Positions 9,553 through 60,759 of a stretch of DNA of 64,000 bases are shown here, one piece after another. Under the pieces are notes generated by a model. The model was given only the letters and a program-made list of their open reading frames with translations, had not been told where the DNA came from and searched no databases. The DNA is from the human T2T-CHM13v2.0 reference genome, Homo sapiens. Where the stretch lies: assembly GCF_009914755.1 (NCBI RefSeq), contig NC_060936.1. One strand, written 5' to 3'. The translations under genes were made by a program, and so were the position numbers. How positions within the stretch are numbered: the stretch's first letter is position 1; every line of letters starts with the position of its first letter.

Positions 9553-9701
9553 GGCCCATCTAGAGGCTGCAGGGCACGTGTGCGTTTTGAAGGATGCCTT
9601 TGACTTTGAAAGCCGATCTGAGATTGCAAACCTCATCTTGGCTGAGAACTGCGAGGCTGCCCTGGCTCTTCATCTCTATAGGGGAGGCAGGCTTTTGCAA
9701 G
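9553..9701 (+). CDS. GLT1D1: GLT1D1 internal coding exon (exon 2), (R)[49 protein letters not shown](G)
   Basis: Pyrimidine tract then AAG acceptor (AG 9551-9552); donor CAAG|GTAATC; 149 nt, phase 2 to phase 1; open frame; peptide recognised as GLT1D1. Confidence 0.96.
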
Positions 9702-9934
9702 GTAATCCTCTTTTTCTTCAAAAGTAAAACACTAGAAATTCTGAAAACCGGAAGTGCCTGTAATGTCCAATAACACGGGAAACAGTGTCTCCTTTTTATC
9801 CAGTTCAGAAATGGGAGACATGCAATAATCTCTTTGGTTTGCTTTCTTAATGCACAATTTTCTTAAATGTTATAACAGTCAAGAATGGATGTGTATTGAA
9901 ACTGTTTTTACCATATTAAAAGTATCATCCTTAA

Positions 9935-10246
9935 TTTTTGTTTGTTTATTTATTTGTTTTTTTGGGACAGGGTCTCTCTGACTCTCACCCAGGCTGGAGT
10001 GCAGTGATACAATCTCGGCTCGCTGCAACCTCCGCTTCCTGGGCTCAAGCAATCCTCCCACTTCAGCCTCCCAAGTAGCTGGAACTATGGGTGCATGCCA
10101 CCATGTCCCCTAATTTAAATTTTTGTTTTTTTTTTCAGGGATAGGGTTTCACCCTTGTTGCCCAGGCTGGTCTTGAATTCCTGGGCTCAAGCAATCCATC
10201 CTCCTCAGCCTCCCAAAGTGCTGGGATTGCAGGCATGAGCCTGGCC
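9935..10246 (-). mobile_element. Alu (J-type) downstream of exon 2
   Basis: Full antisense dimer. Confidence 0.93.
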
Positions 10247-11352
10247 CTGAATTTTTTCAATGCATATTTCATCTTTCAAAATATATTTTTTTCAAAAGAA
10301 TTCTTTTACAAATAGAGCACTTATGAAAGATGTTGTTCAACCCATCAATTTATGAGGAAACTACTAAGATGTTAAAACCAGTTTAAAGCACATTTGAGCA
10401 ACTGGAGTTTAAATAAGCAATTTAATAAAGAATATCAGAGTAAATTCACGAGGTTAGTTGCAGAACTGATTAACATCCAACAAGGCAATGGGCCCCAAGC
10501 TTTGGAAGTATCTCTTCTACTGGACAGAAATGATTTACGTCTCTCCCTGACACAAAGCTACAAATGGCTTAATGTAACTTCACAGAGTATGAGCTTTCAA
10601 TTAATAGTAAATAGTGAAGTCAAACAACAATACACTCTCTCAGAAAATGAGTCTTTAGAGGACCCTTTTAATTATGGCTTCCTAGAACATTGCAAGAAAA
10701 TGCATGTGGACCTTATTTATTCTTATTATTCTTGACCTTATTTTCAGGTTGTGGAAAATTTTTCTTAACACTCACAAGACCCATCTGACTTTACTGAGAG
10801 TATAGCAGCCACCAAATAAAGGCAAGACAGATATTTTTGTTATTGTCTGGCCTGAGTGATTTCCTCAAACATGAATTAAATGACATAGTAGTGGTATCAT
10901 TTGTGCTGCACCATTTTAAGGGATAGTAATAGCATGTCATTGGAGGATCAAAATTTGCTCTAGTCATCATCACATCAGGATTAAATTTTGGTCAGCAAAA
11001 TGTGTCACACTTTCAAAAATTTTAGAGGTTTTTTACTGAAGGTGATTTTTTCATTTTTCCACACTGTATCAAACCTTATTTAAGCTCCAGCTCTTTTTCC
11101 TGCCTCCTGTTCCACAGGAAGTTGAGCCCTCTCTGAACACTCTCTTCATATATGGGCACATCTTACTATGTGTTCTTTTTTATTTTTTCAGGTAATACAT
11201 GAAAAATTGCCCCGGTGTAAAATGTAACTGAGTGGTATAGTATGAAAAGTAAGCCTGTCTCCCACCTCTTATCCCCACTGTATTATTTCTCATTTCCAGA
11301 GGTAACCACAGTTAACATTTTCTTGTGGATATTCTCCTAGAAATATATGTAC

Positions 11353-11815
11353 TGTATTGATTATCTATTATTACATAACAAATTACCCCCTGCCCCAACT
11401 TAGTTGCTTATCGCAGTACATTTGTTATCTAATGGTTCCTGTGGGCATTCAAAAGCAGCTTAGCTGGGTGGTCTGTCTCAGGGTTTCCCATGAGGCTGCA
11501 GTCTTATCTGGTGGCTTGACTGGGGCTTGCTGATGTGCATCCATTATAGTGCACTCACAAGGCCGTTGGTGGGAGGTCTCAGTTCCTTACCACATGGTCC
11601 TCTCCATGGCCCTCTTGAGTGTCCTCACGATGTGATGGCCAGCTTCTCCCTGAGAGAACCATCAAAAGAAAAGCAAGTTGGAATTTGCCTTATTTTTCAT
11701 GACCCAGGCTCAGAAGTCAATACAACATGAATCCCACAATATCCTTCTGATTACACAGGTCAGCACTATTCAGTGTGAGAGGGCACTACACAGAGCATGC
11801 ATATGAGGAGGTTCA
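11353..11815 (-). mobile_element. MLT1-family (MaLR) LTR
   Basis: TGTATT..TTATCTATT..CATAACAAATTACCCC..AACTTAGT..GCTTA start; AGCTTAGCTGGGTGGT..CTCAGGGT..CATGAGG body. Confidence 0.75.
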
Positions 11816-12245
11816 TGTACACCCATGCATGTATTTATATGTACCTCCTCCCCCATCTTAAACACACACACACAAATGGAAGCCCACCGCTGAATATATA
11901 TTCAGCATCTTCCTTTTCACCGCTCAGCCACACATCTGGGAACTTTCTCCCATAGTGGCACATACATAGATCTGTCTCATCCATTGTGCAGAGGTGCCAT
12001 CATTTAAAGTCTTCAATAAATAAATGTTTACATTGTCTTTAATTTTTCTATTTCACCTTTTAGAATGCTTGTCTCTGTACAGACATCATAGCATACCAAC
12101 TTGGGAGAATATATTTGTGCTTCCATATTTTTGCATCCGTGCCTGAACAATCTAAATGAACTGTTTTCTGTATATGCGGAGAGTGTTTCTGAAAGTATTA
12201 TTTCTAGAGAGTTATTTTCTGCTGAACAAGTATATGACTTTGAAT

Positions 12246-12553
12246 TTTTTTTTTCTTTTTTTTTGACACAGGGTCTCACTCTGTTACCCAGGCTGGAGTG
12301 CAGTGATACAATCTTGGCTCACTGCAACCTCCATTTCATGGGCTGAAATAACCCTCCCACCTCAGCCTCCCAAGTACAGGCATGTGGGACTGCAGGCATG
12401 TGCCACCATGCCCGGCTATTTTTTTGGTATATTTTTAGAGACAAGGTCTTGCCATGTTGCCCAGGCTGGTCTTGAACTCCTGGACTCAACCAATCCACCC
12501 ACCTTGGCCTCCTAAAGTGCTGAGATTAAAGGCATGAGCCACTGCACCCAGCC
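12246..12553 (-). mobile_element. Alu (J-type)
   Basis: Antisense dimer; TSD TTGAATT. Confidence 0.92.
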
Positions 12554-58644: not shown

Positions 58645-59218
58645 TTTGTTTTTTTTTTTTACTTTTTCCATATTTATTGAGGTACAATTAATGAAATTAT
58701 ATGTATGTGAGGTGTACAATGTGATGGTTTGGTATCTGTATACATTTTCCTTTATATACCTATGGACATGTGTTTGTTTATCTTTTCTTCAACTTTTATT
58801 TTAAGTTCTGGGTACATGTGCAGGATGTGCAGGTTTATTATGTAGGTTAACAATGTGCCATGGTGGTTTGCTACACAGATTATCCAATCACTTAGGTGTT
58901 AAGCCCAAGCATCCATTAGCTATTCTTCCTGATGCTCTGCCTCCTGCGACCCCAACCCTCCGACAGGCCCCAGTGTGTCCTTCCCCCATGTGTCCATGTG
59001 CTCTCATCATTCAGCTCCCACTGATAAGTGAGAACATTCGGTTTTTAGTTTTCTCTGCCTGCATTAGTTTGCTGAGGATAATGGCTCCCAACTCTATCCA
59101 TGTCCCTGCAAAGGACATGATCTCGTTCCTTTTTATGGCTGCATAGTATTCCATGGTGTATATGTACCATGTTTTCTTGATCCAGTCTATCATTGATGGG
59201 CGTTTGGGTTGATTCCAG
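58645..59218 (-). mobile_element. L1 3'-end fragments (L1MA-like about 58645-58745; L1PA-like about 58780-59218)
   Basis: GGTACATGTGCAGGATGTGCAGG...TCAGCTCCCACT.ATAAGTGAGAACAT; reverse-strand WNQPKRPSMIDWIKK ORF2 remnant. Confidence 0.9.
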
Positions 59219-59514
59219 GACATGCATTCATTTAGGTGTGTGGATCTCTCTATGCATATATGAGTTCATGAGGACATTAATATATAAACCATTTTTCTAG
59301 TTTCATCAAGACGTTATTCTTCCTATCTAGAATTGCATCTAAATCTTTTCTAGAACGTCTGGCTCCTATTTCAGTCATAGTTGAGTCAGTTCCCCCGTGC
59401 CTCGTCCTTTTTCTTTGCAGCAAAAGTTGCATTTTACAGCCTGAGCTCAGCTCCATTTTTTCCCACCAGAAATCATTAGTTTACAGCAAGGAAATTAATA
59501 TAAAAGTAAGAGTA

Positions 59515-59841
59515 GGGGCGGGGTGTGGTGGCTCACGCCTGTAATCCCAGCACTTTGGGAGCCCAAGGCGGGCAGATCACCTGAGGTCAGAGTTTGAGAC
59601 CAACCTGGCCAACATGGTGAAACCCCATGTCTACTAAAAATACAAAAATTAGCCAGGTGTGGTGGTGCATGCCTATAATCCCAGCTACTCAGGAGGCTGA
59701 GGCAGGAGAATTGCTTGAACCCAGGAGGAGGAGGTTGCAGTGAGCCGAGCCGAGATTGCACCACTGCACTCAGCCTGGACAACAGAGCAAGACTCTGTCT
59801 CAATAATAATAATAATAATAATAATAATAATAATAATAATA
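59515..59841 (+). mobile_element. Alu (S-type) with an (AAT)13 tail upstream of exon 7
   Basis: Full dimer; TSD TAAGAGTAGG. Confidence 0.95.
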
Positions 59842-59963
59842 AGAGTAGGAGAAGCTGGCCTCGAAGTCAGAGGCCTCCACTTCTGAATGCATCTGTGATG
59901 TCATTGCTACTGCAGCATCCAGAGCCCTCCCCACTGAAAACATTCTGAACTCTTCTCTTACAG

Positions 59964-60059
59964 AGATTAACCAAAGTGCTGATAATTTGCACATATTTCT
60001 TCTGATATGTGGACTTCGACAAGTTAAGGATCCTCTCTATCTGGTGGACGCATTTTCAG
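59964..60059 (+). CDS. GLT1D1: GLT1D1 exon 7, (E)[31 protein letters not shown](A)
   Basis: TCTCTTACAG acceptor; CAG|GTGTGT donor; 96 nt, phase 1 to 1; encodes the GT-B C-domain G-x-R-x-x-K loop. Confidence 0.94.
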
Positions 60060-60709
60060 GTGTGTTTGCTGGCTACCTTCCTCCACTGTTTATAGAATTC
60101 CTTGTGGGCGCCCATCTCAGCATTTCTCTCTTCAGGGCCCTGAGTTTTCTTTCCTCATTCTTTGCACGTGAGCAGAGCTGTTTCTAGATTGCTACTTTGG
60201 AAAAGAACAGAAAAATAATGCATGGGATCAGCAGCTCTTTGGAGGAATTTCTGTTTAGTTTTCCACTGTCCTGTGCCCTCAGGTTCTGAGAAAATCATAA
60301 AAATAGCAAATAATGATAGGACTAAAATAATTTTACCTGAAAATATTTCACACATGCTGATTTGTGTGATGCATTTGGAGTTTTGGTTATTGTTTAAGGT
60401 AATCGATATAGTCTTGGTATATTCCAAAGTCCACATTGAATTGGGGTGATATTGGAGACTAGTCCTAGTTATCCAGTAAATTAGAAATCTGGACAATGGA
60501 TAATATTGTAGAAATTCACTTAAAATCATAAAATGTCAAATACAGAAATTCTAAATAAATATAATTTAAATTGCCTAATATTATGAATGAAAGCCAAATG
60601 ATATGAAATAATTTATGTTATTGAGAAATTTATATTGAAGTTAGTTGTGCTTGCAGCTGTGACTTAAACCCATTTGAAGTGTTTTTTTGTCTTCTTTTTT
60701 CTTCCCAAG

Positions 60710-60759
60710 CCTGGCATCAGGAGGAGCCCAATGTGCACCTGGTGATTGTGGGTCCTGAA
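60710..60759 (+). CDS. GLT1D1: GLT1D1 exon 8, (A)WHQEEPNVHLVIVGPE
   Basis: Pyrimidine tract then AAG acceptor; GAA|GTAAGT donor; 50 nt, phase 1 to 0; LVIVG strand typical of GT4-like enzymes. Confidence 0.94.

What the first reader, a model, noticed from the sequence alone, without database searches (positions are those of the whole stretch)
9553..60759. GLT1D1 has SenB-type active-site motifs: candidate for the missing mammalian selenosugar synthase
Seen: the spliced exons encode LALHLYR (His codon 9671-9673), [10 protein letters not shown] (Asp codon 22340-22342) and [10 protein letters not shown] (Lys codon 60026-60028). Recalled knowledge, not verified here: SenB, the bacterial GT-B enzyme of selenoneine biosynthesis that makes 1-seleno-sugars from UDP-sugars and selenophosphate, has LALHARR, GVVLTGTDL and VGHLRQVKSP in the same order, with the His, Asp and Lys implicated in catalysis. 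Both proteins also begin with a GNxxTAQR motif, but GLT1D1 exon 1 is outside this window. Mammals excrete selenium mainly as methylseleno-GalNAc, and I know of no assigned enzyme for its Se-glycosidic bond. Inference: the poorly characterised GLT1D1 may be a soluble Se- (or S-) glycosyltransferase that uses selenophosphate from SEPHS2, rather than a protein N-glycosylation enzyme.
Basis: partly seen in the sequence, partly recalled or inferred. Interest (0 to 1): 0.92.

Follow-up and report, generated by a model that had tools for sequence, protein, structure and literature searches.

The report
GLT1D1: candidate animal selenosugar synthase
The poorly understood human enzyme GLT1D1 keeps the substrate-pocket residues of SenB, the bacterial enzyme that makes selenium sugars. 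Its bacterial relatives sit inside selenium-handling gene clusters, so it is a credible, testable candidate for the unknown enzyme that makes the selenium sugar excreted in urine.

Summary
The window's GLT1D1 exons encode [17 protein letters not shown] and [10 protein letters not shown] at the stated codons, exon 1 (outside the window) encodes GNAVTAQR, and SenB carries the recalled motifs.

GLT1D1 is not a SenB-family member. It scores 47-66 bits against TIGR04348 (cut-off 300), and its best match is NF038229 at 174-177 bits. In trees it falls in a sister clade to SenB.

SenB is the nearest solved structure for a GLT1D1-only profile. It ties with BshA when bacterial relatives are added and in the fold search. 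It is the only solved structure that aligns across the N-terminal GNxxTAxR loop. Of SenB's ten pocket and catalytic residues, nine are kept in human GLT1D1.

New independent support: in 17 of 17 Bacilli genomes that have a GLT1D1-like enzyme, the gene lies directly downstream of selB, within 0.2-10 kb of selD and, where the fetched stretch reaches it, selA. It was found only in genomes with selD (17/25 against 0/16). These enzymes share GLT1D1's pocket signature.

Against: the closest bacterial relatives show no selenium link, and two of the three motifs also occur in BshA. One paper reports GLT1D1 as an N-glycosylated membrane protein.

Nothing biochemical was tested. I put the selenosugar-synthase reading at about 0.45.

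The parts
9553..9701 (+). GLT1D1 exon 2 (residues 24-72 plus the first base of codon 73). Carries LALHLYR: His63 (9671-9673) and Arg66 (9680-9682). These align with SenB His58 and Arg61 of the selenophosphate pocket.
   Evidence: codons; hhalign H63/R66 to SenB H/R; SenB pocket residues; H63 and a basic residue at 66 conserved in animals, SenB and the Bacilli sel-cluster enzymes
22302..22407 (+). GLT1D1 exon 3. Carries [13 protein letters not shown]: Gly83, Gly84, Thr85 (22337-22339), Asp86 (22340-22342), Asn88 and Asp90. These align with SenB T83-G84-T85-D86.
   Evidence: the same GTD motif occurs in BshA
32899..32950 (+). GLT1D1 exon 4 (N-terminal domain; ...RFAVAFTESMKEMAQAQW region).
40552..40599 (+). 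Alternative in-frame 48-nt exon (KARQISLAVTSAVPVQ). It is present in the 362-aa isoform 5 and skipped in the 346-aa form. It inserts after Trp125, in a loop of the N-terminal domain.
   Evidence: P0140 is identical to the spliced 362 aa; secondary structure: loop between helix 115-124 and strand 132-134
46062..46098 (+). GLT1D1 exon (PHAKGKVYVQSQ).
48571..48627 (+). GLT1D1 exon ([19 protein letters not shown]), the linker between the two domains.
59964..60059 (+). GLT1D1 exon at the start of the C-terminal domain. Carries [10 protein letters not shown]: Arg175 (60017-60019), Val177 and Lys178 (60026-60028). These align with SenB Arg155, Val157 and catalytic Lys158.
   Evidence: (K158 cleaves the Se-P bond in SenB)
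60710..60759 (+). GLT1D1 exon (...PNVHLVIVGPE). The remaining four coding exons lie downstream of the window, at chr12:128976952-129014766.

Best explanation
GLT1D1 is a soluble, two-domain GT-B (GT4) glycosyltransferase that acts on a small anionic acceptor. It is not a protein N-glycosylation enzyme.

It belongs to a clade defined by an N-terminal GNxxTAxR loop. SenB, the selenosugar synthase of selenoneine biosynthesis, is the only characterised member of that clade.

Most likely mechanism (inferred, not shown):
1. The C-terminal domain binds UDP-GalNAc, and to a lesser extent UDP-GlcNAc. Glu252, Asn15 and Thr18 hold the sugar, and Val177 packs against the N-acetyl group.
2. Selenophosphate made by SEPHS2 sits in the N-terminal pocket formed by Asn15, His63, Arg66, Thr85 and Arg175.
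3. The already deprotonated selenium attacks C1 with inversion, giving a beta-selenophospho-sugar.
4. Lys178 activates water to cleave the Se-P bond.
5. This releases 1-beta-hydroseleno-GalNAc. That compound is then trapped by glutathione (GS-SeGalNAc) and methylated to the urinary CH3SeGalNAc.

Shown here: homology, fold, residue conservation, and the selenium gene context of bacterial relatives.
Inferred: donor, acceptor, chemistry and cellular compartment.
For: 1. Homology to SenB over both domains. hhalign gives probability 96.1%, E = 3.3e-9, 302 columns. SenB chains are the top four PDB hits of a GLT1D1 profile. With a wider clade profile, SenB is the only solved structure that aligns from profile position 6, covering the GNxxTAxR loop; BshA aligns only from position 52.

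2. Fold. The AlphaFold2 model has pLDDT 95.7 and pTM 0.91. Residues 2-7 form strand beta-1 of the Rossmann fold. The top Foldseek hit is SenB 8jjn_A (E = 7.6e-19, target TM 0.81, 20% identity). BshA, MshA, sucrose-phosphate synthase and GlgM follow, all enzymes with small acceptors.

3. Residues. SenB N20, T23, H58, R61, T85, R155, V157, K158 and E231 correspond to human N15, T18, H63, R66, T85, R175, V177, K178 and E252. Only T83 differs (Gly in human).

4. Independent genomic context.
- In 41 relatives of Salsuginibacillus, 17 carry a GLT1D1-like GT. All 17 have selD, and none of the 16 genomes without selD has the GT (Fisher p = 7e-6).
- In all 17 the GT is immediately downstream of and co-directional with selB. 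It lies 0.2-10 kb from selD; selA was seen in 12 of the 17 fetched stretches. A selenium-type LysR regulator and an ABC transporter often lie between.
- In a wider sample of the same phylum, 23 of 23 GT-bearing genomes have selD, against 279/401 overall (p = 1.8e-4).

5. Pocket signature. His63, a basic residue at 66, GGTD, Asn88 and Asp90 are shared by animal GLT1D1 (8/8) and the sel-cluster Bacilli enzymes (16-17/17). SenB shares His, Arg, T85, D86 and Asp90. The signature is lost in the clade members without selenium gene context. With SenB as outgroup, the signature looks ancestral.

6. Chemistry and distribution fit.
- SenB makes SeGalNAc from UDP-GalNAc with inversion.
- The 2026 review proposes selenophosphate plus alpha-UDP-GalNAc giving HSeGalNAc by an SN2-like step, and names no enzyme.
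- Selenosugars occur in mammals, quail, turkey and fish. GLT1D1 occurs in mammals, chicken, reptiles, amphibians, fish and a sea star.

7. No paper in the library links GLT1D1 to selenosugars.
Against: - GLT1D1 fails the SenB family model: 47-66 bits against a 300-bit cut-off. Its best family is NF038229 at 174-177 bits, still below that model's 400-bit cut-off. SenB is a separate, long-branched clade.
- The closest bacterial relatives, at 35-41% identity (Peregrinibacteria, Streptomyces, Micromonospora, Luteitalea), show no selenium link. The Peregrinibacteria-like MAG has housekeeping neighbours and no selD in 1.1 Mb. The Streptomyces gene sits in an operon with an alpha/beta hydrolase, a HAD hydrolase and an MFS transporter.
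- In the wider phylum sample (which I take to be mainly Clostridia) the GT usually pairs with an LmbE/BshB-like deacetylase and an MBL hydrolase, a bacillithiol-like layout. It is not adjacent to selD there.
- The GTD and RxVK motifs also occur in BshA, whose acceptor is L-malate. BshA ties with SenB in profile and fold searches.
- SenB Thr83 is Gly in GLT1D1, and SenB's EGGAHV motif reads SEGMSAA.
- The 17 Bacilli genomes are relatives of each other, so part of the synteny is inherited rather than independent.
- One paper reports GLT1D1 as N-glycosylated, type II membrane-bound and acting on PD-L1. That would place it away from cytosolic selenophosphate.
- No biochemical evidence exists.
Confidence: 0.45

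Rival explanations
1. GLT1D1 transfers GlcNAc or GalNAc to another small anionic metabolite, such as a carboxylate or a phosphorylated compound. This would resemble BshA (L-malate), MshA (inositol phosphate) or sucrose-phosphate synthase. The conserved pocket would bind a carboxylate or phosphate group rather than selenophosphate, and the product would be an unrecognised HexNAc conjugate.
For: - BshA ties with SenB as best profile and fold match, and it shares the GTD and RxVK motifs.
- Bacterial relatives in the wider phylum sample are paired with an LmbE/BshB-like deacetylase and an MBL hydrolase, like thiol-cofactor pathways.
- The Streptomyces relative is followed by HAD and alpha/beta hydrolases, which suggests a phosphorylated or esterified intermediate.
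- The nearest relative lies in a genome with no selD.
- SenB's pocket was crystallised with plain phosphate.
Against: - BshA lacks the GNxxTAxR loop and aligns only from profile position 52.
- Salsuginibacillus has a true BshA (546 bits) as well as the GLT1D1-like GT, so the two are not the same function.
- This reading does not explain the 17/17 selB-adjacent arrangement or the 40/40 co-occurrence with selD.
- Animal GLT1D1 shares its pocket signature with the sel-cluster enzymes, not with the LmbE-paired ones.
Confidence: 0.3
2. GLT1D1 is a membrane-bound or secreted glycosyltransferase of the secretory pathway that promotes N-glycosylation of proteins such as PD-L1, as published.
For: A lymphoma study reports that GLT1D1 levels track with glycosylated PD-L1. 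It also reports that GLT1D1 shifts in size after tunicamycin or PNGase F, and it draws the protein as a type II membrane protein.
Against: - The hydrophobic N-terminus is strand beta-1 of the Rossmann fold in a model with pLDDT 95.7. It is directly followed by the invariant G14-N15 loop, so cleavage or membrane insertion would destroy the active site.
- All bacterial homologues begin the same way.
- Every strong structural match is a cytosolic enzyme with a small acceptor.
- My text search of that paper for terms such as 'in vitro glycosylation' and 'recombinant GLT1D1' found none. I did not read the paper in full.
- N-glycan transfer to Asn is done by oligosaccharyltransferase, which is an unrelated fold (established knowledge).
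Confidence: 0.07
3. GLT1D1 and the selB-adjacent bacterial enzymes act on a selenium-related macromolecule or on a sulfur analogue instead. Examples would be a tRNA nucleoside, as the GT4 enzyme GTDC1 does with queuosine, or thiophosphate or a persulfide, giving a thiosugar.
For: The bacterial gene sits beside selB and selA, which act on tRNA(Sec). SenA accepts a thiosugar in vitro according to the SenB preprint, so S/Se promiscuity exists in this chemistry. The role of GTDC1 is recalled knowledge, not checked here.
Against: The pocket residues match SenB's small selenophosphate pocket. In the sequence alignments and the secondary-structure output I saw no added domain or basic N- or C-terminal extension; surface properties of the model were not examined. 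No tool result points to tRNA.
Confidence: 0.08

Closest known systems
SenB (TIGR04348), selenosugar synthase of selenoneine biosynthesis; PDB 8jjn, 8jjq, 8jjt, 8fbx, 8k5u
   Same: - GT-B/GT4 fold of about 310-350 aa with no extra domains.
- N-terminal GNxxTAxR loop (N20/T23 in SenB, N15/T18 in human).
- H-x-x-R (H58/R61; H63/R66), GTD (T85/D86), and LRxxKxP with the catalytic lysine (R155/K158; R175/K178).
- Donor-binding Glu (E231; E252).
- Best or joint-best hit by sequence profile and by fold.
- SenB accepts UDP-GalNAc and gives a beta-selenosugar, the core of the mammalian metabolite.
   Different: - Only 19-22% identical to human GLT1D1, and 47-66 bits against a 300-bit family cut-off.
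- A separate clade on a long branch.
- SenB Thr83 is Gly in GLT1D1, and EGGAHV reads SEGMSAA.
- SenB's invariant Trp21, Trp27 and Tyr85 are absent from GLT1D1.
- SenB works with SenA and SenC to make selenoneine. No such partner context applies to the human gene, and I did not search the human genome for a SenA homologue.
NF038229 'GPMC system family 4 glycosyltransferase' and the NF038229-like bacterial enzymes found here
   Same: Best-scoring family: 174-177 bits over nearly the full length for GLT1D1, and 197-303 bits for the bacterial relatives. Invariant across the alignment of GLT1D1 and these relatives: G14, N15, R21, G84, D86, G173, R175, K178, E252 and others. Animal GLT1D1 is 35-41% identical to the Peregrinibacteria and actinobacterial members.
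   Different: All fall below the 400-bit equivalog cut-off, so none is a true GPMC-system member. The function of this family is unknown. Gene contexts differ by subgroup: a sel cluster in Bacilli, LmbE-GT-MBL in the wider phylum sample, and other contexts in the nearest relatives.
BshA (TIGR03999), N-acetylglucosaminyl-L-malate synthase of bacillithiol biosynthesis; PDB 2jjm, 3mbo, 5d00, 6n1x
   Same: GT4 fold with a small anionic acceptor and a UDP-GlcNAc donor. It shares the GTD and RxVK motifs and ties with SenB in profile and fold searches. Bacterial relatives of GLT1D1 in the wider phylum sample are paired with a BshB-like deacetylase.
   Different: It has no GNxxTAxR loop and aligns only from profile position 52. 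It is 15-17% identical in the structural alignment. GLT1D1 orthologues score 28-40 bits against a 273.7-bit cut-off. It is a retaining enzyme, whereas SenB inverts. Salsuginibacillus has both BshA and the GLT1D1-like GT.

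Membership tests
SenB / TIGR04348 (selenoneine selenosugar synthase) | Score at or above the curated family cut-off (300 bits) | tested here: not met
   GLT1D1 orthologues score 36.6-66.3 bits. 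Bacterial relatives score 68-85 bits.
SenB / TIGR04348 | N-terminal GN-x-x-T-A-x-R loop (N20/T23 bind the sugar and selenophosphate) | tested here: met
   Human GNAVTAQR in exon 1 aligns to SenB GNWQTAxR. It is invariant across the clade.
SenB / TIGR04348 | Selenophosphate pocket: H58, R61, T83, T85, R155 | tested here: inconclusive
   H63, R66, T85 and R175 are conserved. T83 is replaced by Gly83. The assignment rests on alignment only, because no residue-level superposition was available.
SenB / TIGR04348 | Catalytic Lys158 in the L-R-x-x-K-x-P motif | tested here: met
   Human LRQVKDP with Lys178 aligns to SenB LRQVKSP or LRAEKSP. The same R-x-V-K also occurs in BshA, so it is not specific to SenB.
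SenB / TIGR04348 | EGGAHV donor motif (E231) | tested here: inconclusive
   The Glu is conserved (E252), but the motif reads SEGMSAA.
SenB / TIGR04348 | Genomic or functional coupling to selenophosphate synthetase | tested here: inconclusive
   Gene order cannot test this for the human gene. Bacterial clade members: 17/17 Bacilli genes lie in a sel cluster beside selB and within 10 kb of selD, and 40/40 GT-bearing genomes have selD. The nearest relative lies in a genome without selD.
SenB / TIGR04348 | Activity: UDP-sugar + selenophosphate gives 1-seleno-beta-sugar | not testable with these tools
   This needs a recombinant enzyme assay.
NF038229 (GPMC system GT4) | Score at or above the curated cut-off (400 bits) | tested here: not met
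   135.9-177.3 bits. It is the best family hit but lies below the cut-off.
GT4 / GT-B glycosyltransferases (Pfam PF00534, PF13692) | Two Rossmann-like domains and a C-terminal Glycos_transf_1 domain with the E-x7-E region | tested here: met
   Precomputed Pfam PF00534 and PF13692 on all orthologues. AF2 model with pLDDT 95.7. 619 PDB matches at E <= 0.001; every match listed in the output is a glycosyltransferase. E252 and E260 are invariant.
BshA (TIGR03999) | Score at or above the cut-off (273.7 bits) | tested here: not met
   27.9-40 bits, C-terminal domain only.
Secretory-pathway protein glycosyltransferase (published PD-L1 role) | Signal peptide or transmembrane anchor preceding a luminal catalytic domain | tested here: not met
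   Residues 2-7 are the first beta-strand of the fold. They are followed by the invariant G14-N15 loop, and no extra N-terminal segment exists. Localisation itself was not tested.

The most novel reading that the evidence does not exclude
GLT1D1 is the long-sought animal selenosugar synthase. It would use SEPHS2-made selenophosphate and UDP-GalNAc to form 1-beta-hydroseleno-GalNAc, the first committed step of selenium excretion.

Its bacterial relatives inside sel operons would define a second, widespread selenophosphate-dependent selenosugar pathway, separate from selenoneine biosynthesis. That pathway would act as an overflow or storage branch next to selenocysteine synthesis.
Probability: 0.42. 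Interest if true: 0.92.

Novelty: new variant of a known kind. Interest (0 to 1): 0.82.

Why it matters
Methylseleno-GalNAc has been known since 2002 as the main urinary form of selenium. Even so, a 2026 review of selenosugars names no enzyme for the Se-glycosidic bond.

An assigned enzyme would open several things:
- a genetic handle on selenium excretion, tolerance and toxicity;
- a way to interpret selenium biomarkers;
- a test of whether selenosugar formation competes with selenoprotein synthesis for selenophosphate, which bears on ferroptosis and cancer work on SEPHS2.

It would also re-annotate a human gene currently described as a protein glycosylation factor.

The bacterial finding (a GLT1D1-like enzyme fixed between selB and selD) would add a new member to the prokaryotic selenium utilisation gene set. 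The experiments needed are ordinary and cheap.

Tried and rejected
- Typed spliced protein. I stopped that step and worked through database protein ids and in-script splicing instead.
- Single exons as queries. They gave only weak family hits and no PDB hit.
- SenB model on the six-frame human genome. It did not pick up GLT1D1 because the exons are too short. This says nothing about relatedness.
- phmmer of one fish orthologue against the PDB. This did not rank SenB first. The profile search did.
- Searches for more relatives of the nearest bacterial subgroup. 301 and 121 Patescibacteria genomes yielded only the starting genome. 331 Pseudomonadota genomes had no NF038229-like gene. So the link to selD could not be tested outside the phylum of the Salsuginibacillus genome.
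- The Streptomyces plasmid genome is not held, so its selD status is unknown.
- Careful maximum-likelihood tree. It did not finish in the time allowed. Both trees are quick searches with SH-aLRT support only, and the BshA outgroup sat on a very long branch and was unreliable.
- 'GLT1D1 is lost in birds.' I considered this because no bird appeared in the hit lists, and rejected it because chicken has an annotated GLT1D1 coding SNP at codon 323.
- Metabolite or element GWAS link. The only hit was a plasma cobalt association in a small study, which is not informative.

Full report
**1. Observation**

The eight annotated exons in the window all have AG/GT borders. Spliced in frame they encode the stated peptides. 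His63 is CAT at 9671-9673, Asp86 is GAT at 22340-22342, and Lys178 is AAG at 60026-60028.

I fetched the rest of the gene from the same assembly.
- Exon 1, at chr12:128885238-128885305, encodes [23 protein letters not shown].
- Four further coding exons lie downstream, up to 129014766.
- All splice sites are canonical.
- The product is 346 aa, or 362 aa when the in-frame 48-nt exon at 40552-40599 is included.
- The 362-aa product is identical to database protein P0140, 'GLT1D1 isoform 5 [Homo sapiens]'.

PDB SenB chains show GNwqTArR, LALHARR, vvLTGTDL and GHLRQVKSP aligned to the human motifs.

**2. How close is GLT1D1 to SenB?**

*Curated bacterial family models*:

| Family | Score of GLT1D1 orthologues | Cut-off | Coverage |
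|---|---|---|---|
| NF038229 ('GPMC system family 4 glycosyltransferase') | 174-177 bits | 400 | nearly full length |
| TIGR04348 (SenB) | 47-66 bits | 300 | reaches the N-terminal domain |
| All other GT4 families | at most 57 bits | — | C-terminal domain only |

*Solved structures.*
- A vertebrate GLT1D1 profile ranks four SenB entries first, at E about 1e-7.
- A wider profile that includes 13 bacterial relatives gives a tie between SenB and BshA at about 100 bits.
- Only SenB aligns from profile position 6, across the GNxxTAxR loop. BshA aligns from position 52.
- BshA also carries GTD and RxVK.

*Profile-profile comparison.* GLT1D1 against a 12-member SenB alignment gives probability 96.1%, E = 3.3e-9, 302 columns and 24% identity.

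*Trees.* Quick maximum-likelihood trees place animal GLT1D1 (support 99) with a Peregrinibacteria, actinobacterial and acidobacterial group (97-100). That pair then joins the enzymes from Bacilli and the wider phylum sample. SenB is a separate clade on a long branch.

So GLT1D1 is a member of SenB's sister family, not of the SenB family itself.

**3. Structure**

An AlphaFold2 model of the 97%-identical baboon orthologue, built on a 33-sequence alignment, has pLDDT 95.7 and pTM 0.91. Residues 2-7 form the first beta-strand of the N-terminal Rossmann domain. The G14-N15 loop and a helix follow directly.

The hydrophobic N-terminus is therefore part of the fold, not a signal peptide or membrane anchor. 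All bacterial homologues begin the same way.

Foldseek against the PDB puts SenB 8jjn_A first (E = 7.6e-19, target-normalised TM 0.81, 20% identity). BshA entries are practically level with it. MshA, sucrose-phosphate synthases, GlgM and TreT follow. All of these act on small, mostly anionic acceptors.

**4. Residues**

The SenB papers define these roles:
- Sugar binding: N20, T23 and E231.
- Selenophosphate pocket: N20, H58, R61, T83, T85 and R155.
- Contact with the GalNAc acetyl group: V157.
- Se-P bond cleavage: K158.
- H58-D86 is explicitly not a catalytic dyad.

By hhalign and MAFFT these map to human N15, T18, E252, H63, R66, G83, T85, R175, V177 and K178. Nine of the ten are kept.

Across the SenB family the third motif is LRxxKxP, so the exact LRQVK match is partly chance.

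**5. Bacterial context: the new evidence**

*Two starting loci.* A scan of representative genomes found two bacterial relatives.
- One lies in a 1.1-Mb Peregrinibacteria-like MAG, with housekeeping neighbours and no selD.
- The other is in Salsuginibacillus kocurii. It lies directly after selB and is followed by a selenium-type LysR regulator, an ABC transporter, a Sec-containing selD and selA.

*The Bacilli relatives.* In 41 relatives of that genome:
- 17 carry the enzyme and 25 carry selD.
- All 17 enzyme carriers have selD, and none of the 16 selD-less genomes has the enzyme (Fisher p = 7e-6).
- In all 17 the gene is immediately downstream of and co-directional with selB.
- selD lies 0.2-10 kb away.
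- Where the fetched stretch reaches that far, selA lies just beyond selD (12 of 17 loci).
- The intervening content varies.

*The wider sample.* In a 401-genome sample of the same phylum, 23 genomes carry a full-length relative and all 23 have selD, against 279/401 overall (p = 1.8e-4).
- There the gene is usually in an operon of an LmbE/BshB-like deacetylase, the GT and an MBL-fold hydrolase. The deacetylase is adjacent in 10 of 21 loci and the MBL hydrolase in 5.
- It is not next to selD.
- From genome sizes and the Sec-type selD I take these to be mainly Clostridia, but the tool does not report taxonomy.

*Literature.* A 2015 comparative-genomics paper on selenium genes lists an unexamined 'glycosyltransferase' beside yedE in Slackia, but does not discuss it.

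**6. Pocket signature tracks selenium context**

| Group | Position 63 | Position 66 | Position 83 | N88 | D90 |
|---|---|---|---|---|---|
| Animal GLT1D1 (n = 8) | H in 8/8 | R or K in 8/8 | G in 8/8 | 8/8 | 7/8 |
| Bacilli sel-cluster enzymes (n = 17) | H in 17/17 | R or K in 17/17 | G in 17/17 | 16/17 | 16/17 |
| SenB (n = 11) | H | R | T | Y instead | D |
| LmbE-paired enzymes of the wider sample (n = 20) | H or N | mostly not basic | T | variable | variable |
| Nearest bacterial relatives (n = 8) | H | G, A or L | G | 7/8 | not D |

All groups keep T85 and D86 (two of the 20 LmbE-paired enzymes have Ser at position 85).

With SenB as outgroup, the signature appears ancestral. It is retained in animals and in the sel-cluster enzymes.

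**7. Fit with the mammalian pathway**

- SenB converts UDP-GalNAc and selenophosphate into 1-beta-seleno-GalNAc with inversion.
- A 2026 review proposes that selenophosphate is diverted to HSeGalNAc from alpha-UDP-GalNAc by an SN2-like step. Glutathione conjugation and methylation follow. My term search of the review found no occurrence of 'enzyme', 'glycosyltransferase' or 'SenB'.
- Selenosugars are reported in rat, human, quail, turkey and marine fish.
- GLT1D1 is found in mammals, chicken, reptiles, amphibians, teleosts, gar, a sawfish and a sea star.
- No paper in the searched library links GLT1D1 with selenosugars. The six papers that mention both GLT1D1 and selenium look incidental from their titles and abstracts.

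**8. Evidence against, and limits**

- GLT1D1 fails the SenB family cut-off.
- Its nearest bacterial relatives have no visible selenium link.
- Thr83 is not kept.
- The 17 Bacilli genomes are related to one another, so the conserved gene order is partly inherited.
- The association could not be tested in other phyla.
- The trees are quick searches only.
- One paper reports a tunicamycin- and PNGase F-sensitive GLT1D1 band and a role in PD-L1 glycosylation. If correct, that places the protein in the secretory pathway, away from cytosolic selenophosphate.
- Nothing here measures activity.

**9. Verdict**

It is strengthened by an independent line of evidence: clade members are built into bacterial sel gene clusters and share GLT1D1's pocket signature.

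I rate the selenosugar-synthase mechanism as the single most likely function, at about 0.45. Next comes a BshA- or MshA-like transfer to another small anionic acceptor, at about 0.3. The published protein-glycosylation role is unlikely on structural grounds.

Noticed in passing
L015:8080-18016; L074-L089 (Bacilli genomes G001, G1138-G1166): There is a conserved selenium locus: selB > GLT1D1-like GT > (LysR_Se) > (ABC transporter with a selenate-type binding protein) > selD < | selA > acnA. The GT follows selB directly in 17 of 17 genomes. I found no description of this GT as a selenium gene in the library searched.
   Followed up: yes
L045, L052, L053, L055-L058, L060, L063, L064: In genomes of the wider phylum sample (probably mainly Clostridia), the GT sits in an apparent operon of an LmbE/BshB1-like deacetylase (119 bits, below cut-off), the GT and an MBL-fold hydrolase. 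This resembles the first steps of bacillithiol or mycothiol synthesis. All these genomes have selD, and the four checked for BshA lack it. The product is unknown. Human urine also contains a deacetylated selenosugar (CH3SeGalN).
   Followed up: partly
window 40552-40599 (+): This is an alternative in-frame 48-nt exon that adds 16 residues after Trp125, in a loop of the acceptor domain (362-aa isoform 5). A macaque entry also has 362 aa, while the platypus and possum rows lack the insert. Its effect on the pocket is unknown.
   Followed up: partly
window 5622-5769 (-): An Rfam Metazoa_SRP match at 70.2 bits, just at the gathering score. At 148 nt it is most likely an Alu (7SL-derived) element. 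It lies about 250 bases from the last exon of lncRNA LOC124903084 (5252-5369).
   Followed up: no
L066:7001-10667 (Streptomyces sp. NBC_01546 plasmid): A close relative of GLT1D1 (38% identical to the MAG enzyme) heads an overlapping four-gene operon: GT, alpha/beta hydrolase, HAD-IA hydrolase and MFS transporter. This hints at an exported small glycoconjugate made through a phosphorylated or esterified intermediate.
   Followed up: no
G000 chr12:100540841-100541230 (L002): A Glycos_transf_1 match of 65 bits with one TGA and one TAA inside. It is possibly a broken GT4-family copy elsewhere on chromosome 12. It was also the only weak human hit of the SenB model.
   Followed up: no
Genomes G001-G402 of the phylum sample: In almost every listed genome the selD match contains a single in-frame TGA. 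This means the selenophosphate synthetase is itself a selenoprotein in these genomes, which is why simple ORF lists truncate it.
   Followed up: no
GLT1D1 locus (literature, PMC13414432 Table A4): A small case-control study lists the published variant rs117426959 at GLT1D1 as associated with plasma cobalt (p = 2.7e-11). No selenium association is reported there. The reliability of the finding is unclear.
   Followed up: no
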